Source of the DNA: Paraspadella gotoi
Lineage: Eukaryota > Animalia > Chaetognatha
Assembly: GCA_051294375.1 (NCBI GenBank)
Contig: CM119267.1
Location: 2,726,290 to 2,745,757 of the forward strand
Length of the DNA: 19,468 nucleotides
Direction: 5' to 3'
Part shown: one piece after another, positions 473-19,179 of the stretch
How positions within the stretch are numbered: position 1 is the stretch's first letter
Layout: every line of letters starts with the position of its first letter
The notes under the pieces: model-generated
What the model was told of the DNA's origin: nothing
What the model saw: only the letters and a program-made list of their open reading frames with translations
Databases searched by the model: none
Program-made: the position numbers and the translations under genes

Positions 473-1204
473 AATCTTTTTTTTAAAGCAAAACAAAGAA
501 AATTCAAATGCCACGTCGTCCTCGCATCGATCCCTCGCCATAGGAACGAAGATCGATCAAGAATTACACGTTAAACGCGCGTTAGCTACAATCATAAACA
601 TCCCGGTCTTCTTTTGACTGGAACATAAATGTTTGAAGTAAATAAGTTTACGATTTATTTCAATTGTATATTAAAATTTCGTTGTTTTTTAAACATTGAA
701 AAAAACCTATATCTCTTAATTTATTTCAAATATATTTAACTTTATATAAAAATTTAATTTGATATATTAAAACAAGTAGTTACAGTGACTCAACTTAACA
801 TTGAAAATACTCAAAATTATATTCGTTTATAAACGGACGGACAGACGGACGGACTGACGGTTTTCTATTTTTAAGTTATTACCGCTGCTTGTTTTTAATG
901 TTACTGTCGTCGTAAGAGTTGTTCGTTGTTGTTGTTGTTATTGTCTTTTGCCGCCAACTTCGGTGGAATTCACTTCCGGTTTATTAAACACGAAAGAGAC
1001 GAGAGAAGAAAAAGGTTTTGACAGGCGGGGATTTTAGGCTGAGAGGAGGAGGAGGAAGAGGAGGAGGAGAAAGGGAGCGAAGATAGAGAGAAGAAAGGAG
1101 GGGAAAAAAGGGAGAGAAGGGCTAAGATAGAGAGATGGGTTGTGAGAGTCAGAGACAGTCAATGAGAGGCTTTCATTTTTGTCGAGATGTGATTACTAGG
1201 GACA

Positions 1205-2078
1205 TAGGGCTTAAGCTAGAGCCAAACTTCGTCAATGGGGTGGGTCAGAAGTTTGATTTGGAACCTTCCAAATGAAACTTCATACATTCTGAGAAAACTT
1301 TCATGGAGCAAAATTTTCTAAAATGGCTAAAAGCATTAGTAATTATTTTTTATATATTATTTATAGATATGCAAATGTAAAAATTTTTTTGGGAATTTTT
1401 TTTTTAAAAGCAGATTCAAATAGCTTATGAAAAGTTATCTACACAAAGTAAATTCTTTTTCAATTATTTTGATGATAAGTGGGCTAAAATTGGGAAAAAA
1501 CCTTTAAAAAATCATCATCATCATTCATCATTATCATCCGATGATTTTATAGTTTTTACTAATTTTTAGTAATAAAACATCAAAATTTTAAAAAGTTGTA
1601 TTATACTTTTTGCTTAAATTTTTAAGCTCTATCAGAATCCATTAAAAAAACTTAAAATATCCAAAAATAATTTTTGACATTATATAGCGATATAATAATA
1701 TTAATTAGCGAATTACTCATGGTTCTGAACATTTTTGCAAAAAAATATTTTAACACAATAATTAATACCAATAATGGATTAGTTTAATGCTGTTCCCATT
1801 AAAATTTGAATTTGGTCGGACACCGCTTAAGTTAAGCTGCTGTCTTTAATTCTCATAATGAAATTATATACAAAATACTTATATATGTCGCTTAGTTATA
1901 AGTTTAGAGGTACAAAATTTTTGAGTTATGCAAATTCTAGCAAAGGTACAACCGACAAACAGACCGATAGAAATCAACTGCTCAACAGCTTATAATTATT
2001 CTATGGTGCTTAATTATTTTATAATTATTATATTTATAATTATTCTATGGTGCTTTCAGCTTGGCTCTGGCTGAAAAT
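1205..2078 (+). mobile_element. Putative non-autonomous Helentron/DINE-1-like (HINE-type) element
   Basis: 5' CTTAAGCTAGAGCCAAACT (1210-1228) is an imperfect inverted repeat (15/19) of 2058-2076. 3' end has CAACCGACAAACAGACCGA, then hairpin TTTCAGC-TTGGCTCTG-GCTGAAA. Interior AT-rich and non-coding; internal 22-bp direct duplication (1990-2011/2034-2055). Boundaries approximate. Confidence 0.45.
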
Positions 2079-2548
2079 TCATCTTAATAATTAATTTCAA
2101 AATTTCAAGAAATAAAAAAAATTCAAATTTAATTATCTTATATTTCCGTCAATATTAAATTAAATATTATTTATGTTGAGGAGTTTTTAAAAAGTTAATA
2201 GCTATCCCACTCTGATTCTCAACAGGTGTCCTTCTCGTCGCCTTCGTCTTTTGTTTCCCTCTTTTGTTCTTTTTTTTCTGNNNNNNNNNNATCGATGGTC
2301 GATAACGAGAACAAATGAAATCTTCTGTCGCTTGAAATAAATGACGCTGGGGAACGGAGCTCCGAGACTGGGGTGTCACTGTTCGGCGTTTAAGGCCGGC
2401 GCTTGTCTGGTTGAGTCAGGGGGTAAACAAGCTCGATTCCAGCCAGCTTGTTTGCCATCGGCTCGTTCGCTTCCACCTTCAGAAAAAAAAGAAAGCGGAA
2501 TTTCCAATGTAAATCAGAATGGATCCTTCGTCTCGCGACGCGGCTTGA

Positions 2549-2919
2549 AAGGTAAGGCGACCCGAAGCGAAAAGGTAAGTGAATTTCTCGCGGTTCGGCA
2601 GCCAGGACCGAAAGGAGGTAATAAGNNNNNNNNNNAAGGGTCGCGTATCGAAATGAACATCGCAGAAGGTAAGTCCATCCACTCGACGGGTCAGTTTTCC
2701 AGATGACGATCTCGCTCGATCCCTCGATCAGACGCCGCGCAAGGGTAAGGAAATCTGGTCGATCGTGGGTAAGGAAATCTTGTTGAGGCCATCGAGGGTA
2801 AGGGATCTCATTGTCGCGTCGTTCGTGAGTTTGTGAGAGATGGAATCGAAAGATGAGAAGAAATCTTGGAAGTAAGGAAAGGTAAGTTTAGACGCCGAGG
2901 CCGCGAGGCGAGGGTAAGT
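2549..2919 (+). promoter_or_regulatory. Dense array of U2-type 5' splice-site motifs (candidate multi-donor exon / U1-binding array)
   Basis: GT positions: 2552 AAG|GTAAGG, 2575 AAG|GTAAGT, 2618 GAG|GTAATA, 2669 AAG|GTAAGT, 2690 CGG|GTCAGT, 2745 AGG|GTAAGG, 2769 TGG|GTAAGG, 2798 AGG|GTAAGG, 2825 TTC|GTGAGT, 2833 TTT|GTGAGA, 2872 GAA|GTAAGG, 2882 AAG|GTAAGT, 2914 AGG|GTAAGT. No CTTACC in the same interval. Confidence 0.65.
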
Positions 2920-2957
2920 CGGATATTCGAGTATTAGTCTTCGTCCTTTTTATCATT

Positions 2958-3001
2958 TCGTCGTCGTCGTCTTCGTCGTCGTCGTCGTCGTCGTCGTCGT
3001 C
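2958..3001. repeat. (TCG)n trinucleotide microsatellite
   Basis: Tandem TCG/GTC units with one interruption, just downstream of the last donor motif. Confidence 0.95.
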
Positions 3002-3726
3002 CTATTTGCTTCTTTCCTATATGCGAATTCTGAAAACAGACTAATTTTAAATGTTAAGTTTACTTTTTTTAATGTAATGTCGACGAACAGACATATATTA
3101 TATTTTATATTGTCGATTTTTGCCATTATACGTTATTTAATGTTTATAACTTTTTAACTTGTTATTGTTTCATTCTCTTTTATTTGACGTAAATTATTTT
3201 AGACAGGCTGTTCCTTAAATTTGTGGCCGAGAAATTTGAGCGCAAAATTCATTCGCTCTTTTTAGTCAAATGCTCAAATCTAATAAATGTTATAATTTAA
3301 ATCTAAAAAAAGAGCACATCGACTGTTATCTCATAAACCATTTCAATAAAATTATCCTTAGAATTTTTCACCCTCTCTTCTCTCTCCTCTCTCTCTCTCT
3401 CTCTCATCTCTCTTCTCGTCTCTCTCCTCCTCTTCCAGCGAATCACTGGCGCCGTTGTTGAATATAAAAGAGAATTTGTTCGGCGATAAAATTGTTTTTT
3501 TTCCCAAATTTATTCCTTCATTGCTTAAGACATCACCTCGGACTGCCTCGTAAAAAATGTTTTCAAAAATACCGAAAAACACGTTTTTTGCGTTTTGGGG
3601 GCATAAATGCGTGAGGAATCGCGGGGAAAATAAAAAAGAAAAAAAAGAAAGAAAGAAATGGCATGTAAATAAGATCGACATAAGAAATACTTAGGATCTT
3701 TCTGAGTTGAGAAAAGAGAGTGAGGG

Positions 3727-4338: not shown

Positions 4339-4753
4339 AACAAGAATCTTAATTCCCTGTATCGCGAAATATGTATTTCACATAAAACAACCAAAAATGA
4401 ACGTATTATGCTGTATTTATTTTGTGATCATATAACCGTGATTTCATATAGTCATGTAATTACATAAGTATAATATATATTATATAGGCTTAAAAAGCGT
4501 TTATTCACAACTTACTAATATGCTAATTATTATACTGCAGTGAATTTCTGGTCATGTGATGACTTTTTAGGTGATCATGTGACTCAACATTCAAGGTCTT
4601 ATGGTACCAAATATTAACTTAATTGACGGCGTATTACCCGAGTTATAAGCAGTTAAAACATAAGTGTAATAGACCAACCGACAGACCGATCGAAAGACCG
4701 ACCGTAAACGACTGATATAGTTGCTCCGCGAGTACTCGCGGCGCAACTAAAAA
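4339..4753 (+). mobile_element. Putative HINE/DINE-1-like element ending in a 30-nt palindrome
   Basis: GAGTTATA, then (GACC/GACA)n tract (4672-4712), then AGTTGCTCCGCGAGTACTCGCGGCGCAACT (4719-4748) and AAAAA. The same terminus recurs at 9459 and 12779. A related truncated fragment lies at about 4250-4335. 5' boundary uncertain. Confidence 0.55.
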
Positions 4754-5290
4754 GGAAAAATGATGAGAATAAAAAAACGTGAGAAAAAGAGTGAAAATTC
4801 GGCGATAGAATTAGAGCGAAAAAGAGGAGGCGACGCCTATCGGCGGAGAGAAAGGAAATTGGGTAAAAAGCGAATCCAAACAAAAGACGCAAGAGGGCGA
4901 AAACAAAAAAAACAAAAGATCTCTCTGTCTCTTACTGGAAATGGAATCCCGATCCCCGAACGGACTCGCTGAGTGTCTCTCGAGTTTCTGCTTTTGTTTT
5001 TTTTTGTTTTTCCTGTTTTGGGAGGTGTGGCAAGAACGAGGTCCTGTTTTTGATGAGACTATCCTAAGTTCCCAAGTCATTGGATGAGGTTGAGAGAGAG
5101 AGAGAGAGAGAGATTTGATTTGATTTGATTTTGTGATGCTCAAAATGTAAAAATTTAACACAGTAACAATGGAATTGTTAATGAGCTGTACATATTAAGG
5201 CGGAAACAGGTAAAAACTAACTAAGAAAGTTCTTGTCATTATAAATAACGTTAAAGCATCCCTGTGGTATAACGAAATAAAAAAAACAAA

Positions 5291-5412: not shown

Positions 5413-5660
5413 CGGCCATTGGTGGCGGAGGCAAGTCATTCGCCTCCCAACCCAAAGGTCCGGGGTTTCAGCCCGGTGGTCGTCTGGCAGTTAAGAGGGA
5501 CGGGGCGCTTAACCCGCCCCCCTTGTAACATCGGTGTTACAGCCTGATCCGAAGCTAAGGGACTGCTTATATTGAACGGTTTCTGTCATTAACACATATC
5601 AATAATTACTGTCTCTTCATTGGTGAAGCCCGACTTCCGACAAACAACAACAACAACAAA
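5413..5660 (+). mobile_element. tRNA-derived SINE-like element, full copy
   Basis: 70-nt tRNA-like head 5413-5482: acceptor-like pairing CGGCCA/TGGTCG, A-box-like TGGCGGAGG, T-arm CCGGG-GTTTCAG-CCCGG with B-box-like GGTTTCAGCCC. The anticodon arm does not pair. Structured body and (CAA)n tail at 5641-5660. A second copy lies nearby. Confidence 0.7.
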
Positions 5661-5814: not shown

Positions 5815-6078
5815 ATGGTCGGACTAAAACCTTCCAAACCGTTAACAATCACTGAGGGCCAAATTTTGTGCCGGGAGGGCAAAGTATCGATTTCGCACAC
5901 GTCCCAACCCAAAGGTCCGGTTCAACCCGGTGTCGTTCTGACATTAAGAGGAGGGCGCGTCGCTTAAAGCCTCGCCTGTAAAGCAGTGGCTCGTTTTACA
6001 GGCTGAATCCGAAGCTCAGGGACTGCTTATATTGAACGGTTCTGTCATTAACACATATCAATAATTACTGTCTCTTCA
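5815..6078 (+). mobile_element. Second, 3'-truncated copy of the SINE-like unit
   Basis: Aligns to 5379-5619: shared GGACTAAAACC, TCCCAACCCAAAGGTCCGG, B-box-like GGTTCAACCC. The last ~60 nt (AGGGACTGCTTATATTGAACGG...TCTCTTCA) are identical except one T; the 5' part is indel-rich. Confidence 0.7.
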
Positions 6079-6426: not shown

Positions 6427-7019
6427 CACTGCAATAACTTTATCTACAGCAAGATCGATTTACTGCGAATGGTCTCGCTTCTGTTTCAGCCGTCGATAAC
6501 TCGATCTCAGATTCTTGTCTAAATTGCTCTCGGTCAGAGGCGTTCCCTACTGTATCTTCGTCTCATTCGATGCTCTCTGTACAATTTCAGTTTCGTCGAA
6601 TGACGTTTTTAAATGAATATTGTTTTGCAATAATAAATTAGATATAACAAGGTAACATTATTTTATATAAAAACATTAAGAACAAGATAAAGTAAGACAA
6701 GGTAAGTATCGAAAATTAGAGACCGAATTTATCACTCTCACCTTCTCTCCTAAATTCACGAAATCCACACTCACAGTAAATCCCATTATTGCAATACCCT
6801 CGAAATTTTATGATAATTTTGGAACATTTGGCAAAAAATGCTATCGATGATGTACGATGTGTCACCAATGTGAAATGCAAATTAGATTTAGCTGTCATCT
6901 TTGTTTCCTTGGACTTTTGGATGCTGGACAAAGAAACGCGACGAATCAAAATTTGATAAAAAAACAATAAACCGACTATCGATCTCACGATGATCTCAAC
7001 CCCCACGCGTGTCACTAAA

Positions 7020-8039: not shown

Positions 8040-8356
8040 GCCGGAATTATCACTCGGCGGCGTCACAATCTTTGCGCAGTGGAGTTTGAATCGTCGGGCA
8101 ACGGTGACAGAATTACTGCATCACGCAGGGGCGTCGAAATACTGAAGCAATTGCGTTGGAATCATCTGAAAGGGGCGTTGTAACCATCTGGAATCGTTAG
8201 TAAGTGGCGTTTTGATTGGTGAATGGCATCAGAATCGTCAGGTAGCCGCGTCGGAATTAACAGGCAGAGTTATCAGGCATATTTATTAGGCATAGTTATG
8301 AGAAATAGTTATCAGGCATAGTTATCAGGCATACATATCAGGCTGTGGCATCGGAA
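8040..8356. repeat. Degenerate ~22-bp minisatellite grading into a 13-bp tandem repeat
   Basis: Units resembling GGAATCATCAGGCAGTGGCGTC (e.g. GGAATCATCTGAAAGGGGCGTT, GGAATCGTTAGTAAGTGGCGTT), then ATCAGGCATAGTT-type units at about 8267-8343. Confidence 0.65.
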
Positions 8357-8436
8357 TCGAAAGAATCATATTCCATCTTTTTTCTCCCATTTAATCTCGT
8401 TTTCGTTAGATTATCTATTTCGTAATCGACCTGTAT

Positions 8437-8472
<36 letters not shown>

Positions 8473-8889
8473 NNNNNNNNNNNNNNNNNNNNNNNNNGAG
8501 AGAGAGGAGAGAGAGAGAGAAGAGAGAGAGAGAAAGAGAGAGAGAGAGGAGAGAATGAGAGAGGTAGGACGAGAGAGCAGACGTTAGAGAGAGAGATGGA
8601 GAGAGGAGAGAGACGATGAGTTCGCTTGACTCCAACGTTTAGATTTAGTGCTCAATTATTCGTCAATTACCAGATCAAATGCCGCAAAGGCGTGTCTCTC
8701 TCCTCTTCCATGAATAACGAGTGAGAGGATTAGGTTCCTTGCAAATGCAGGTATTTCTTCATGGGATTCTATTTCAGTCGAGAGCGAGAGAGAGCAGAGA
8801 GAGAAGAGAGAAGAGAGAGACGGAGAGAGATGAGAGAGGAGAAGAGAGAGAGGAGAGATGATGACTTTTTGATGAGAGAGAGATGAGAG

Positions 8890-9260
8890 GGGAGACAATA
8901 CATCGTGTCGTTTACGAATAGATAATCTAACGAAAACGAGGATTTATAATGCGTAGAGAAAAAGATGTGAATATGATTTCTTCGATTCGATGCCACTCAG
9001 CCTGATTATGTATCGTCTGGATAGACTATGCCTGATAACTATTTCCTCAATAACTATGCCTATATAGAATATGCCTGAAACTCTGCTTTAATTCCGTACG
9101 CGGCTAACCTGACGATTCTGATGCCATTTCCCCAATCAGATAACGCCACTTTACTAACGAAATTCCGAGATGGATTACAAACAACGCCCTTTCATATGCA
9201 TTTTCCACGCAATTGCTTCAGTATTTCGACGCCCCTGCGTGATTTGCAGTAATTCTGTCC
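8890..9260 (-). repeat. Indel-rich inverted copy of 8106-8445 (likely assembly artefact)
   Basis: Reverse complement matches throughout, e.g. CGCAATTGCTTCAGTATTTCGACGCCCCTGCGTGAT vs ATCACGCAGGGGCGTCGAAATACTGAAGCAATTGCG. Differences are mostly 1-2 nt indels; the partner lies between two 25-N gaps. Confidence 0.85.
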
Positions 9261-9349: not shown

Positions 9350-9492
9350 TAACAGAGTTATAGGATTGAAAACGTAAGTAGAAATACCGACAGATACTGA
9401 ATACTGACAGACAGACAGACAGACAGACAGATAGACAAATAGACAGATAAAGACAGAGAGTTCCTCCGCGAGTACTCGCGCGCAACTAAAAA
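9350..9492 (+). mobile_element. 3' part of HINE/DINE-1-like element
   Basis: GAGTTATA, (GACA)n tract 9406-9455, then AGTTCCTCCGCGAGTACTCGCGCGCAACT (9459-9487) and A-run; same terminus as 4719-4753. Confidence 0.6.
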
Positions 9493-9817
9493 GAATTACA
9501 ATTTAACTTAAAATATTTAATTCGACAAAGTCACTTCTCTGGGCGACCGAACGTCAAATAACAAATACCGTAATTTCTACTGCGGCCGAAGCTGATGCCG
9601 TGATTAATTTACCCGCTAATCGGTAATAATTAATCACGATTGTCAATTTTTATCAAAGCTACGATTCGAATCAAAATCATAAAAGTTGACTTTTTTTACA
9701 TAATTTTTTCTTAAACGGAATTGGAAATCTAATCTGTTTGAAATATTCGACCGTAAAATCGAAAGTGAAGCCTGGCGCCTGAGGTTCTAATAGAGGGGGG
9801 AAAAAGAGAGAGAGATT

Positions 9818-12773: not shown

Positions 12774-12900
12774 TTTTTAGTTGCGCCGCGAGTACTCAAT
12801 GGGCAACTTTTTGATCTGTCGGTCGTGTCGGTCTATCCCGCTACGTTTCAAAATTTCGGAAATATCTAAAGTTTTTAACCATGTCGGCTAATCTCGCCTC
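12774..12900 (-). mobile_element. Minus-strand terminus of the same HINE-like family
   Basis: TTTTT-AGTTGCGCCGCGAGTACTCAATGGGCAACT (12779-12808), followed by CTGTCGGTCGTGTCGGTC, the reverse complement of the GACCGACA tract. Confidence 0.6.
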
Positions 12901-13137: not shown

Positions 13138-13342
13138 ACGAGAGAAAAAATGTTGGGTTTTTATGTTTGAGGATTAAGCGAAGGATAAAACGAAGAAGAG
13201 TTTGTGTGTTTGGGGAATTTTTCACTGATTGGAAAATTCGGAAGAAGCAAAACCAAATTCTCATTTTTTTTTCCTTTTTTTTCTTTCTATTTTATTTTTT
13301 TTCATTTTTTCGCTGAATTGAATAGTTTTTCGATCGAGACGC

Positions 13343-13570
13343 GAATCGCTTTTTCGAGCGAGAATTGCTTTTCGAGGAGAATTGCTTTTTCGAGCGAAAA
13401 TTGCTTTTTCGAGCAGAATTGCTTTTTCGAGCGAGAATTGCTTTTTCAATTAAATTGCTTTTTCGAGCGAGAATTGCTTTTTCGAATAGGAATTGCTTTT
13501 TCTGAGCGAAGAATTGCTTTTTCAAGTAGGAATTGCTTTTTCAAGCGAGAATTGATTTTTCGAGCGAGAA
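13343..13570. repeat. 19-bp minisatellite, about 12 copies
   Basis: Consensus GAATTGCTTTTTCGAGCGA; units 17-21 nt, with a conserved AATTGCTTTTTC core. Confidence 0.95.
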
Positions 13571-14580
13571 ATACTTTACAAATAGCAGGGGTAAAAGGGC
13601 GAATGCTTTTTTCCTTATAGAACCGCTTTTAATTGCCTCACAAGTAAGAGAGTAAAAGTAAAACACAGAGTTTCTTACGTAATAATAAATCTAAAAATAG
13701 AGTTGGCTTCCATTGCGAATTAGAAACTATTATATTAATATTGCTTTCAAAATGTTTGTTTTTCTTGAATTTTTTTTTTTTGATGTAAATCATATATTTG
13801 ATAAACATCGTCATTAAGACTAAGTATTAATCTTAATTTTAAGAATTCTTCACAATTTTAAACATCTCGTAATATTTTGTTCTGATTTACATTAGTATGT
13901 TTCACTTTCTTAATTTGCTTTATTTATTTTTTTGTTTTAAGTCACGTCCAAAAAAAAGTAGTTTTAATGTTTGAAATTCCGAAAATAATCAGAGAGAGAA
14001 AAGTGTCTCTTGACTTTTTAGGCGACTTTTCTGTTGAGTTAAAAACATTAGTCGCCTTTTGTTTGTACAAATCAAATAGGAAAACGATTGTAAATGTTAA
14101 TTAGGTGTTTTATTCGTATCAGATTATGATGCAGATGCAAACAAATATATAAAAAAATATATAAGTAAAGCAAGACGGAGACATGTATATAATGAAATAA
14201 TTGTATATGGTTTCTCAAACTTCATTTTTTGTTAATAAATGTAATCTGGATACCAAAAAGATCCGTGAAGAGTGAGAATACTTTGCCATCTGTTCCATCC
14301 AAAAATTTCAATGCTATATACTGTATACATATGTCTTTAAAAATAAACTTCACATTCATAAGTTGGTCGTGAAACACAGTTATAATAGAACAGAACAGAT
14401 CAGTTACAAAAGTACAGGTTCTTTTTGTTTTTTTAATTAGATTATATGTACGAATTAAAAATAATATAACAAAATATCAAATAGCACTTATTAACAATCA
14501 ATATATATCATGTTTTGAAAAGTTTATTTTTTTGAGATGCAATTTTAAAACTCGACGCATCTTCACATTTGCTCCTCGAT

Positions 14581-15239: not shown

Positions 15240-15895
15240 TAAAAGAGAAAAAAGGCAAAGAGAAAGCTGAGGGAAAAAGGAAAAGTGAGAGAAGAGAGAA
15301 AGAAAGCAAAAGTAGAGAAAAGAGAAAAAAGCAAAGGAGAGAAAAAAGAAAAAGCAAGAGAAAGCAAGAGAAAAAAGCAAAGGGAAAGAATAGAAAAAAA
15401 AAGAGAGAGAAAAGAGAATAAAAGCAATGAAAAAGAATAGATAAAAAATCAGAGGGAGCGAAAAGAAAAAAAAGGAAAGAGAGAGAAAAGAGAAAAAAAC
15501 AAAGGAAGAAAAGCTTAAAAAAAGCAAAGGAAGAGAAGAGAAAAAAAGCATAGGGAGAGAAAAGGAAAAAAAAGAAAAAGGAGAGAAAAGAGAAAAAAGT
15601 AAAAAAAGCAAAGAAAAAGAAGAGAAAAAAAGCATAGGGAGAAAAAAGAGAAAAAAAGCAAAAAGGAGAGAAAAGAGAAAAAAGTAATCTAAAAGAAGAG
15701 AAAAAAAGCATAGGGAAAGAAAAGAGAAAAAAGCAAAGGGAGAGAAAAGAGAAAAAAGCAAAGGGAGAGAAAAGACAAAAAAGAAAAGAAAAGAAGAGAA
15801 AAAAGCAAAGAAAGAGAGGAAAAAAAAGCAAAAGAAGAGAAAAGAGAAAAAAAGCAAAGAAGAGAAAAAAAGCAAAGAAGAGAAAAAAGCAAAAG
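15240..15895. repeat. Purine-rich ~25-bp degenerate minisatellite
   Basis: Unit like AAAAGAGAAAAAAGCAAAGGGAGAG, with about 20 AAAGCA cores. Confidence 0.85.
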
Positions 15896-15968
15896 GTGTG
15901 AAAGTGGGAAGAAAAAATCTACTAGACGGGTTGAAGGTTTCATTTTCTCGAGTTCAAAGCCGCCTCAC

Positions 15969-16010
15969 CAGGTAACGTCGGCGACAAAAGGAGAATGTTA
16001 CGCGTTCCAT
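15969..16010 (-). CDS. Candidate 42-nt cassette exon of an unidentified minus-strand gene
   Basis: Minus strand: CCTCGCAG | ATGGAACGCGTAACATTCTCCTTTTGTCGCCGACGTTACCTG | GTGAGG. Length divisible by 3; two open frames (MERVTFSFCRRRYL or xGTRNILLLSPTLPx). Pyrimidine-rich acceptor TTTTGTCCCTCGCAG visible in the duplicate near 17467-17481. No homology recognised. Confidence 0.25.
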
Positions 16011-16020
16011 CTGCGAGGCA

Positions 16021-16564: not shown

Positions 16565-16690
16565 AAAATAAAAAAAAAAGGGAAAAAAGTGAGGGGAGGA
16601 AGAGAGCGAAAAGGAAAAAGGCAAAAGTTAAGAGAAAAAGAGGAAAAAAAAAAGCAAAGCTGAGAGAGGGGAAAGAAAAAAAAAAAAAGA

Positions 16691-16741
<51 letters not shown>

Positions 16742-17883
16742 AAAAGCAAAGGAGGAAAGCCAAGAGAAGAAAAAAAAGCCAAAGCGAAAGAAGGGAAAAA
16801 CGTGGGAAGAGAATAGAAAAAAAAAAAAAAAGAGAGAGAAAAAGAGAATAAAAGCAATGAAAAAGAATAGATAAAAAATCAGAGGGAGCGAAAAGAAAAA
16901 AAAAGAAAGAGAGAGGAAAAAGAGAAAAAAACAAAGGAAGAAAAAGCTTAAAAAAAGCAAAGGAAAAGAGAAGAGAAAAAAAGCATAGGGAGAGAGAAAA
17001 GGAAAAAAGAAAAAGGAGAGAAAAGAGAAAAAAGTAAAAAAAGCAAAGAAAAAGAAGAGAAAAAAAAGCATAGGAGAAAAAAGAGAAAAAAAGAAAAAAA
17101 AAGGAGAGAAAAGAGAAAAAGTAATCTAAGAGAAGAGAAAAAAAAGCATAGGGAAAAGAAAAAGAGAAAAAAGCAAAGGGAGAGAAAAAGAGAAAAAAAG
17201 GCAAAGGGAGAGAAAAGACAAAAAAAGAAAAGAAAAGAAGAGAAAAAAAGCAAAAAAGAAAAAGAAGGAGGAAAAAAAGCAAAAAGAAGAAAAAGAGAAA
17301 AAAAAAGCAAAGAAGAGAAAAAAAGCAAAGAAGAGAAAAAAGCAAAAGGTGTGAAAGTGGGAAGAAAAAATCTACTAGACGGGTTGAAGGGTTTCATTTT
17401 CTCGAGTTCAAAGCCGCCTCACCAGGTAAACGTCGGCGACAAAAAGGAGAATGTTACGCGTTCCATCTGCGAGGGACAAAATTTTTGCGAATCTCCTTTT
17501 TGAGAGAAACTTTTACATGGAATCGCGGAAAAAACAAATGTTTTTCGCTTATGACACTCGCCACCGTGGTTGAGGGAGGGAGAGAGAGAGAGAGAGAGGA
17601 GAGAAGAGAGAGAGAGAGAGAGAGGAGGAGAGGAGGGGAGGGAGAGAGGAGAGGAGAGAGAAGAAAGAGAGAGAAGGAGCGAACGAAGGCAATTAAACAA
17701 AAAGGCGGATGGTTCTGGCGCCAAAACACAATTCGTTAGACAAAATGAAACAGTTTGCAGAAAAACGGGGGAAAAAATGTTATAATATTGGTCGAAAAGA
17801 CCGGGAAGAAAGGACCGAGAACCCGCCTTTTTTAAAAATTAGGAAGAGAGAGGGAGGAAGAGAGAGAGAGAGAGAGAGAGAGA

Positions 17884-17925
<42 letters not shown>

Positions 17926-18109
17926 AGAGGAGAGAGAGAGAGAGAGAGAGGCGCGCGCGCAGGGACCAGAGGAAATTTTCGTGGGGGGCGCCGGCGTCGA
18001 TGGCCCCGCGTCTTTGGACCGGAAAATCTTCAAAACCCAAGCAAGCAATCGGGGGGGGGAAACCAATTCAACGAAGGCAATAAGGCAAAATCCGGGGACC
18101 AATCAGCGA
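16021..18109 (+). other. Noisy redundant copy (raw long-read-like gap fill) of 15012-16020 and 18136-18660
   Basis: 16021-17475 repeats 15012-16020 with inflated homopolymers (CCACTTTTGAAAATATTAATAAATTATGTC vs CCACTGAAATATGATAATATGTC). 17476-18109 repeats 18136-18660. Ends at a 25-N gap. Confidence 0.88.
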
Positions 18110-18289
18110 NNNNNNNNNNNNNNNNNNNNNNNNNAGCAAATTTTTGCGAATCTCCTTTTGAGAGAAACTTTTACATGGAATCGCGGAAAAAACAAATGTT
18201 TTTCGCTTATGACACTCGCCACCTGTGAGGGGAGAGAAGAGAGAGAGAGGAGAGAGGGGAGAGAGAGAGAGAAGGAGAGAGAGAGAGAG

Positions 18290-18324
<35 letters not shown>

Positions 18325-18530
18325 CGAAGGCAATTAAACAAAAAGGCGGATGGTCTCTGGCGCCAAAACACAATTCGTTAGACAAAATGAAACAAGTTTG
18401 CAGAAAAACGGGGGAAAAAATGTTATAATATTGGTCGAAAAACCGGGAAAGAAGGACCGAGAACCGCCTTTTTTAAAAATTAGAGAGAGAGAGAGCGAGA
18501 GAGAGAGAGAGAGAGAGAGAGAAGAGAGAG

Positions 18531-18564
<34 letters not shown>

Positions 18565-19179
18565 GAGAGAGGAAGAGAGAGAGAGAGAGAGGCGCCGCCG
18601 CATTTGACCAGAGAAAAGCAAGCAATCAATCAAGCAACGAAGCAACCAGAACTCAACCAAGCAATCAAAAAAAACAAGTTTCCGATTCCTACATCAAACT
18701 TTAAAACGTATTTTTAATTTTTTTGTTCCGTTCTTATCATTTTGGTTGAGATCGAATCCACGATTGTCGATTCGTTTATTTAAACATAGGATGTTACTTT
18801 TCTCGGAAAAATATTTCTCTCTCCCTCTTTCTACGTTTTTGTTGACTTTGGAAGATTAAACTTTTTTTTCTTTCTTTGTTTCTTTTTTTCGTTTTCTTTT
18901 TCTTTCTTTTTTTTAGCGGCGGCGAAAGAAATTATAAATAAATTTTCTCTCTCGCGAAAAGAGATGAACGGACGATAATTGGTTTGCGTGAAAAAAAAAA
19001 GGTAAACGATAAATTAGAGCAGACGAAAATCGGTCGGGAATTTTTGGGGTTAAATAGTTTTAAATAGTTTGTTTGTTCATCTTGTCTTTTTTTTTATTTT
19101 ATGATGTTGAGGTGAGTTTTTTTTTCAAATGATAATCTTAATGATAATCGTAAATGTATCCTTATACTATATTTTCACT

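What the first reader, a model, noticed from the sequence alone, without database searches (positions are those of the whole stretch)
2226..2930. Strand-specific array of ~13 5' splice-site motifs behind one strong polypyrimidine tract: candidate U1 snRNP-sensing poison/decoy exon
Seen: eight GGTAAG hexamers in ~370 nt (starts 2551, 2574, 2668, 2744, 2768, 2797, 2881, 2913), four of them perfect G|GTAAGT, plus GAG|GTAATA, G|GTCAGT, GTGAGT, GTGAGA and A|GTAAGG. I found only about three other + strand GGTAAG in the remaining 19 kb (3818, 6701, 10569) and no CTTACC inside the cluster. Spacers are mostly unrelated unique GC-rich sequence of 8-55 nt, so it is not a simple tandem repeat. Upstream is a ~50-nt pyrimidine tract (2229-2280) whose AG probably falls in the 10-N gap, a second acceptor-like CTTCCACCTTCAG ending 2482, and stops in all three frames within 2291-2340. 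Established: multiple 5' splice sites occur in the U1-70K (SNRNP70) alternative NMD exon, in decoy exons that promote intron retention, and as the tandem U11-binding USSE. U1 binding also suppresses premature polyadenylation. Inference: a non-coding exon whose many donors measure or trap U1 snRNP, at a density well beyond those examples as I know them.
Basis: partly seen in the sequence, partly recalled or inferred. Interest (0 to 1): 0.85.

Follow-up and report, generated by a model that had tools for sequence, protein, structure and literature searches.

The report
Orphan array of eight splice donors
A single-copy stretch with no recognisable protein gene packs eight splice-donor look-alikes on one strand behind candidate splice acceptors and stop codons, most likely a switch where the U1 splicing particle would bind and divert the transcript to a dead-end form, but neither the host gene nor any RNA from it was found.

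Summary
The core observation holds. Eight GGTAAG lie at 2551-2918, all on +; shuffles give 0.17 and never more than 4. Only 1 of 28 site pairs has related flanks, TRF sees no repeat, and the stretch is single-copy. '~13' is inflated: the weaker motifs are at chance level (6 versus 4.5, P=0.27), and the pyrimidine tract is 1 of 21 on +. No host gene was found: 0 of 306 ORFs reach a Pfam cut-off. No RNA holder was listed; the 'RNA?' run duplicates a 'DNA?' run. Variation is lower in the array than upstream but equally low downstream, so constraint is unproven. The layout (acceptor, stops, clustered donors) matches the vertebrate U1-70K exon 7a switch and decoy exons, with more and stronger donors (8, against 2-4 in the papers read). 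This scan noted similar arrays before on other DNA (arthropod LUC7, springtail U1-70K; unchecked notes). Verdict: real feature, likely a U1-binding unproductive-splicing switch (0.55), membership untested.

The parts
2196..2225 (+). Candidate acceptor 1 (…CTCTGATTCTCAACAG|), at the border of the AT-rich upstream DNA (23% GC) and the GC-richer island
   Evidence: Sequence; 14 of 20 pyrimidines before the AG; use untested
2229..2280 (+). Pyrimidine tract, candidate polypyrimidine tract of acceptor 2
   Evidence: 46 of 52 pyrimidines, 1 of 21 such + tracts in the window; its 3 listed variants (2244, 2258, 2278) are all C/T exchanges
2281..2290 (.). N10; possible place of acceptor 2, AG not seen
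   Evidence: Spanned by contigs of X1 and X8; letters not printed
2291..2340 (+). Stops in all three frames (2303, 2316, 2338) behind acceptors 1 and 2
2422..2456 (+). 12-bp hairpin upstream of acceptor 3; not more stable than shuffles
   Evidence: z = -1.13 for 2396-2482
2463..2482 (+). Candidate acceptor 3 (…CTTCCACCTTCAG|); polymorphic: run X8 has 5 letters put in behind 2478 and 2 behind 2484
   Evidence: 16 of 20 pyrimidines; indels
2549..2557 (+). Donor-like site 1, AAG|GTAAGG
   Evidence: 11.5 bits, recalled generic matrix
2572..2580 (+). Donor-like site 2, AAG|GTAAGT
   Evidence: 12.8 bits
2666..2674 (+). Donor-like site 3, AAG|GTAAGT
   Evidence: 12.8 bits
2742..2803 (+). Donor-like sites 4-6 (AGG|GTAAGG, TGG|GTAAGG, AGG|GTAAGG); 4 and 5 are a local 20-nt duplication
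   Evidence: (D3, D9)
2879..2887 (+). Donor-like site 7, AAG|GTAAGT, with A|GTAAGG 10 nt upstream
2911..2919 (+). Donor-like site 8, AGG|GTAAGT; a natural allele (2912 G>A) reads AAG|GTAAGT
2958..3001 (.). (TCG)n microsatellite closing the GC-rich island

Best explanation
This is a single-copy, one-strand cluster of eight 5' splice-site motifs behind candidate acceptors and stop codons, most likely lying in an intron of an unidentified gene, where it would bind several U1 snRNPs and steer the transcript into an unproductive form. Shown: the enrichment, the strand, the unique flanks, the single copy, the acceptor-like sites and the stops. Inferred from the U1-70K exon 7a and decoy-exon work: (1) the + strand is transcribed as intron; (2) U1 snRNA pairs with the donors; (3) bound U1 defines an exon across to an upstream acceptor (2225, the N10 or 2482); (4) the close, competing donors are seldom used, so the rest of the intron stays in or a stop-bearing exon is included; (5) the product is held in the nucleus or removed by nonsense-mediated decay, so output falls as U1 activity rises. 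The host is guessed to be a splicing factor, on precedent only.
For: 8 GGTAAG against 0.17 expected, maximum 3-4 in 5,000 shuffles; no hexamer reaches 7 copies in 3,000 shuffles. In 2530-2930, 14 of 29 + strand GT score >=3 bits and 0 of 9 on -. Flanks of 27 of 28 site pairs are within the null range and TRF covers 0% of the array, whereas TRF covers 109 of 115 triple-GGTAAGT loci from metagenomes. One X1 contig covers 2064-2946 with no other letter, and nothing else is laid on 2350-2799 at 80% likeness. No indel and 5 substitutions in 2549-2922, none in a core; 2912 G>A moves site 8 towards consensus. Same order of parts as U1-70K exon 7a: alternative acceptor, stop, clustered donors that bind U1 additively and are seldom used (PMC3798272). 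Multiple competing sites are named as a feature of decoy exons (PMC6097662; PMC7373989).
Against: No host exon was found: 0 of 306 ORFs reach a Pfam cut-off, and recalled U1-70K/LUC7 motifs give one spurious tripeptide, so the intron context is itself unproven. Constraint is inconclusive: 5 variants in 364 nt against 22 in 505 upstream (P=0.016), but P=0.06 against the GC-matched 2291-2548; zero variants in the cores has P=0.49 by chance. The downstream flank 3011-3318 is as quiet: X6 differs at 3 places and X8 at 2, and the possible source run X1 also at 3, so a shared haplotype block explains the dip as well. The weaker motifs are at chance level and the tract is 1 of 21. Behind acceptor 3 one frame stays open to 2704, so an exon from there need not carry a stop. 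The U1C-sensing sites in U1-70K are weak (scores 5.29 and 3.38), whereas these are near-consensus.
Confidence: 0.55

Rival explanations
1. First exon or 5' UTR of a gene or long non-coding RNA: the pyrimidine tract is a start site, and the donors are alternative first-intron donors or promoter-proximal U1 sites that protect against early polyadenylation.
For: A GC-rich island (50%) behind AT-rich DNA (23%), with CpG observed/expected 1.5 against 1.03 for the window. No upstream exon was seen in 1-2225. AATAAA occurs at 3282, 3345, 3629 and 3798. Promoter-proximal U1 enrichment and pyrimidine start sites are recalled, from no call.
Against: No coding exon was recognised in the 16.5 kb downstream. 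AATAAA is common in AT-rich DNA. Short upstream frames at 2295, 2316 and 2331 end within a few codons. Eight near-consensus donors are more than a first exon needs (inference).
Confidence: 0.17
2. A neutral relic: an old, decayed tandem repeat or a piece of a rare mobile element whose unit happened to contain GGTAAG.
For: Tandem repeats are by far the commonest source of such clusters (109 of 115 metagenome loci). Sites 4 and 5 are a 90% identical duplication and site 6 shares 12 of 13 letters with site 5. The window is full of simple repeats. Constraint was not shown.
Against: Decay should erode cores and spacers alike, yet 8 cores are perfect while 27 of 28 flank pairs are unrelated. Spacing runs from 23 to 94 nt with no period. 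Single copy in X1 at 80% likeness; no second copy in the window.
Confidence: 0.15
3. A DNA-level enhancer or insulator: a cluster of binding sites for one transcription factor that recognises RGGTAAG.
For: Clusters of one motif with unrelated spacers in single-copy non-coding DNA are typical of enhancers (recalled).
Against: All 8 sites face one way (chance 2 x 0.5^8 = 0.008 if orientation were free). The letters outside the hexamer follow the donor consensus: A at -3 in 7 of 8, purine at -2 in 8 of 8, T at +6 in 4 of 8. No such factor was named by any search.
Confidence: 0.1
4. Protein-coding DNA whose codons give the motif (Gly-Lys on +, or the 165-codon frame 2390-2887 on -).
For: A coding repeat does produce such a cluster in metagenome locus L097. 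The - strand frame is stop-free for 165 codons across an N10.
Against: The cores fall in all three frames (4/2/2) and + frames carry stops. A stop-free run this long occurs in 6.8% of shuffles. No homologue among 66 candidates of 90-289 residues, no Pfam hit. X8 has a net 7-letter insertion inside both long frames.
Confidence: 0.03

Closest known systems
Vertebrate U1-70K (SNRNP70) intron 7 / exon 7a switch (Rosel-Hillgartner et al. 2013, PMC3798272; seen: abstract, sections 7 and 8, first parts of sections 9 and 11)
   Same: Acceptor, then a stop, then a cluster of 5' splice-site motifs on the same strand.
   Different: There: three close donors plus one distal, the two regulatory ones weak, host known, U1 binding and NMD shown, conserved in vertebrates. 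Here: eight near-consensus donors over 370 nt, 70-690 nt from the candidate acceptors; host, transcription and conservation unknown.
Decoy exons of retained introns: OGT, SF3B1, DDX39B, ARGLU1, SPTA1 (PMC6097662, PMC7373989, PMC12017769; passages seen)
   Same: Non-coding cassette with several competing 5' and 3' splice sites.
   Different: OGT has two 5' and two 3' sites; in three of the four decoys targeted in PMC7373989 the alternative donors lie 7-12 nt apart, and OGT's are described as weak. Here the donors are more numerous, stronger and spread wider. Retention of flanking introns is untested.
LUC7L stop-codon exon / LUC7L2 alternative exon 2 (PMC11842720; passages seen)
   Same: A 5' splice site strong on the intron side acts as the sensor of a U1-associated factor; all 8 cores here match GTAAG on the intron side.
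   Different: One donor per exon there. No LUC7 coding exon was found in this window.
U11 tandem-site enhancer (USSE) of U11-48K and U11/U12-65K (described in the PMC3798272 discussion; PMC5473595 seen as search listing only)
   Same: Tandem unused 5' splice-site motifs activate an upstream acceptor and give an unproductive RNA.
   Different: Minor-spliceosome sites; the motifs here are major-type GTAAG.
Conserved intronic pseudo-5' splice sites, e.g. ENOX1/Enox (PMC13100119; abstract and section 6 seen)
   Same: An unused intronic donor motif that binds U1 core proteins and regulates an upstream exon, in insects as well as vertebrates.
   Different: A single 9-nt site acting as a silencer; no array.

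Membership tests
U1-70K exon 7a-type switch | Cluster of 5' splice-site motifs on the sense strand | tested here: met
   8 GGTAAG on +, 0 on -, 0.17 expected; which strand is sense is not known
U1-70K exon 7a-type switch | Alternative 3' splice site closely upstream of the cluster | tested here: inconclusive
   Acceptor-like CAG at 2225 and 2482, AG in the N10 unseen; such tracts are common in the window; use not shown
U1-70K exon 7a-type switch | Use of the acceptor brings in a premature stop | tested here: inconclusive
   All three frames stop by 2338 for acceptors 1 and 2; behind acceptor 3 the stops are at 2510, 2553 and 2704; host phase unknown
U1-70K exon 7a-type switch | Lies in an intron of the U1-70K gene (or another U1 component) | tested here: inconclusive
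   No Pfam hit at cut-off in 306 ORFs and no motif hit. Only 2.2 kb upstream is in view, parts of the window look error-rich, and no genome is held
U1-70K exon 7a-type switch | Conservation of acceptor and donors across species | tested here: inconclusive
   Runs of organisms B and C lay nothing on the element at 80% (their relatedness unknown); within-species variation ambiguous
U1-70K exon 7a-type switch | U1 snRNP binds the donors; the isoform depends on U1C and is removed by NMD | not testable with these tools
   Needs binding assays and RNA
Decoy exon of a retained intron | Non-coding cassette with multiple competing splice sites | tested here: met
   By sequence only: no protein family or homologue, frameshifting allele, eight donor motifs
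Decoy exon of a retained intron | Flanking introns retained; rare junction reads to flanking exons under NMD block | not testable with these tools
Tandem repeat / high-copy transposon fragment | Periodic unit or many genomic copies | tested here: not met
   TRF covers 0%; one contig at depth 68.8 beside 69.1 for the next unique contig and 25,000-540,000 over 1150-1824
U11 USSE | Tandem U12-type 5' splice-site motifs | tested here: not met
   All repeated motifs are GTAAG, not the U12-type consensus (recalled); not scanned with a U12 model

The most novel reading that the evidence does not exclude
An invertebrate lineage has built a high-order U1 counter: eight strong donors in one intron of a U1 snRNP or U1-helper gene that load several U1 particles at once and give a steep, switch-like feedback on the gene's own output. 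Together with the arrays this scan noted in arthropod LUC7 and springtail U1-70K, it would mark a widespread class of dense donor arrays, findable by sequence alone, that I did not find described in the papers searched.
Probability: 0.25. Interest if true: 0.7.

Novelty: new variant of a known kind. Interest (0 to 1): 0.4.

Why it matters
How the cell keeps U1 snRNP levels in range, and how decoy exons block splicing, are open mechanistic questions, and the worked examples I read are vertebrate and have two to four donors. An eight-donor array would let one ask directly, by removing sites one at a time, whether U1 occupancy is counted additively or cooperatively. It would also show that such switches can be found from motif density alone. 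As it stands the element is an orphan without gene or RNA, and the scan already holds better anchored cases, so its own added value is moderate.

Tried and rejected
No whole genome is held. No RNA holder listed. X6, guessed to be RNA, gave the same depths, variants and contigs as X7, guessed to be DNA, so I treat the two as one data set and draw nothing from it about expression; it showed no splice-like joint in the element. X10 and X11 (other organisms) laid nothing on the element: no evidence either way. Rfam: only repeat-driven sub-threshold matches, none in the element. Pfam on 233 of 419 ORFs of 28 aa or more (186 low-complexity ones dropped, two of them added back) and on 71 filtered ORFs of 20-27 aa: none at cut-off. 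Exon prediction by splice signals gave no convincing + strand exon outside the element. An exact 35-mer found 0 in metagenome contigs and 0 in viral contigs. RNA structure: z between -1.13 and +1.10 in five segments; the long-range helices 2231-2244/2554-2567 and 2267-2280/2480-2493 have pairing probability 0.0 and 0.02, so a sequestering structure is rejected. My recollection that the OGT decoy has about twelve donors was wrong: the paper gives two. Look-ups of the scan's notes by place and by sequence were empty. Not run: protein atlas, structure prediction, genome-contig scan.

Full report
Setting. The window is repeat-rich eukaryotic DNA: many microsatellites, a very high-copy element at about 1150-1824, and duplicated, indel-rich segments further right. 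That it is an invertebrate is my inference from this make-up; no call names the organism. No whole genome is held. The element is a 50% GC island, about 2226-2945, between AT-rich DNA and a (TCG)n run.

The observation. Eight GGTAAG lie at 2551, 2574, 2668, 2744, 2768, 2797, 2881 and 2913, all on +. The rest of the window has three more on + and three on -. Dinucleotide shuffles of 2530-2930 give 0.17 on average and at most 3 in 5,000. As a look-elsewhere control, no hexamer of any kind reached 7 non-overlapping copies in 3,000 shuffles. The other dense hexamer clusters in the window fall in simple or tandem repeats. Sites 4 and 5 are a local duplication. Counting 4-6 as one still leaves P=3e-8, or 0.007 after correcting for all hexamers and 50 windows. 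Flanks of 27 of 28 site pairs are no more alike than random pieces of the region, and TRF covers none of the array. The letters outside the hexamer follow the donor consensus: A at -3 in 7 of 8 and a purine at -2 in all 8. Donor scores use a generic matrix recalled from memory, not one trained on this species.

What does not hold. The five weaker motifs are at chance level (6 against 4.5, P=0.27), so the count is 8 rather than ~13. The pyrimidine tract (46 of 52) is 1 of 21 on the + strand. The AG supposed in the N10 was not seen. X8's contig accounts for both N10 stretches as ten letters each, but the tool does not print them. Two acceptor-like CAGs are visible, at 2225 and 2482. Behind the first, and behind the N10, all frames stop by 2338. 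Behind 2482 the first stops are at 2510, 2553 and 2704.

Copy number and variation. One contig of X1, which may be the source of the window, covers 2064-2946 with no other letter at depth 68.8. The next unique contig has 69.1, the repeat upstream 25,000-540,000, and nothing else is laid on 2350-2799 at 80% likeness. So this is not a high-copy transposon piece. Three independent data sets were compared: X4, X8, and X6 and X7 as one, since their tables are identical. The tool lists only differences away from contig ends. In 2549-2922 there are 5 substitutions and no indel; in 2034-2548, 18 substitutions and 4 indels (5 of 364 against 22 of 505, P=0.016). Against the GC-matched 2291-2548 it is 5 of 364 against 10 of 258 (P=0.06). 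No variant hits a core, but that has P=0.49 by chance. One allele, 2912 G>A, turns site 8 into AAG|GTAAGT. Against reading this as constraint: the downstream flank 3011-3318 shows only 2-3 differences in X6 and X8, X1 shows 3 there too and shares 3127 T>G with X6, so these may be errors of the reference. A shared haplotype from about 2500 onwards fits as well as selection.

Coding potential and host gene. None of 306 six-frame ORFs reached a Pfam cut-off; 184 low-complexity ORFs were not scanned. Recalled short motifs of U1-70K and LUC7 found nothing real. The 165-codon frame on - has no homologue among 66 candidates, arises in 6.8% of shuffles and is frameshifted in X8. The host gene is therefore unknown. 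Only 2.2 kb upstream is in view, and indel-rich segments could hide exons, so this is a gap in the evidence and not a refutation. Rfam and folding give nothing unusual. No RNA evidence was obtained (see Tried and rejected).

Mechanism. The order acceptor - stops - clustered donors is that of the U1-70K exon 7a switch. There, three cryptic donors bind U1 additively, activate an upstream acceptor that brings in a stop, and are themselves seldom used, so the rest of the intron stays in and the RNA is removed by NMD (PMC3798272). Decoy exons that hold introns in also carry competing sites (PMC6097662; PMC7373989; PMC8706089; PMC12017769; passages only). I give 0.55 to the same logic here. Every step after the sequence anatomy is inferred. 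The rivals are a first exon with many donors (0.17), a decayed repeat (0.15), a DNA-binding cluster (0.10) and coding DNA (0.03).

Comparison and novelty. It is built like a U1-70K-type switch, but membership is untested on host, junction use, conservation and U1 dependence. It differs in number and strength: eight near-consensus donors, against three plus one in U1-70K, where the two regulatory ones are weak, and two in OGT. Five literature searches listed no paper whose title or abstract opening describes so dense an array in an invertebrate intron. The library lacks most subscription journals and I read no supplements; Figure S2A of PMC3798272 and Figure S2 of PMC6097662 could bear on site counts. 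The scan's own notes report like arrays in an arthropod LUC7 gene and a springtail U1-70K gene, and a weaker case in a LUC7L intron. These are unchecked AI notes on other DNA; they prompted my motif search and shape my guess at the host, but they are not support.

Verdict. A real, statistically robust feature; interpretation plausible but unanchored; a new variant of a known kind if confirmed. Interest 0.40.

Noticed in passing
window 1990-2033: A 44-nt stretch, part of a local duplication, is skipped in X6/X7 and X8 (joint 1989 to 2034): an allele or an assembly error.
   Followed up: partly
window 1150-1824: Very high-copy repeat (summed depth 25,000-540,000 against 69 in X1); family not identified.
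   Followed up: no
window 6652-6707: Three donor-like sites in 55 nt on + (AAG|GTAACA, AAA|GTAAGA, AAG|GTAAGT) in A-rich DNA with a 10-nt repeat; significance not tested.
   Followed up: no
window 5445-5619 and 5902-6078: Two copies, 83% alike over 185 nt, of a GC-rich element, each with a CTAAAACC motif upstream. It recalls non-LTR retroelement ends (from memory); no Rfam match.
   Followed up: partly
window 4671-4754 and 9413-9493: Short dispersed element with GACC/GACA microsatellite and a terminal palindrome (4718-4749) followed by CTAAAAA, with a similar piece near 12775-12810; Helitron-like by recall only.
   Followed up: no
window 8106-8460 and 8874-9259: Inverted pair, 84% alike with 45 gap letters, around an N run: a fold-back long-read artefact or a fold-back element.
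   Followed up: no
window 15273-16018 / 16689-17474 and 17479-17975 / 18138-18617: Direct duplicates at 89-90% with many indels, likely error-rich long-read fill; exons there could be frameshifted and missed.
   Followed up: no
window 13334-13577: Tandem array with alternating 18/19-nt units.
   Followed up: no
L097:1-660 (+): An open frame of six-residue repeats ending in I-G-x yields a one-strand GGTAAG cluster from codons alone: a false-positive class for donor-array scans.
   Followed up: partly
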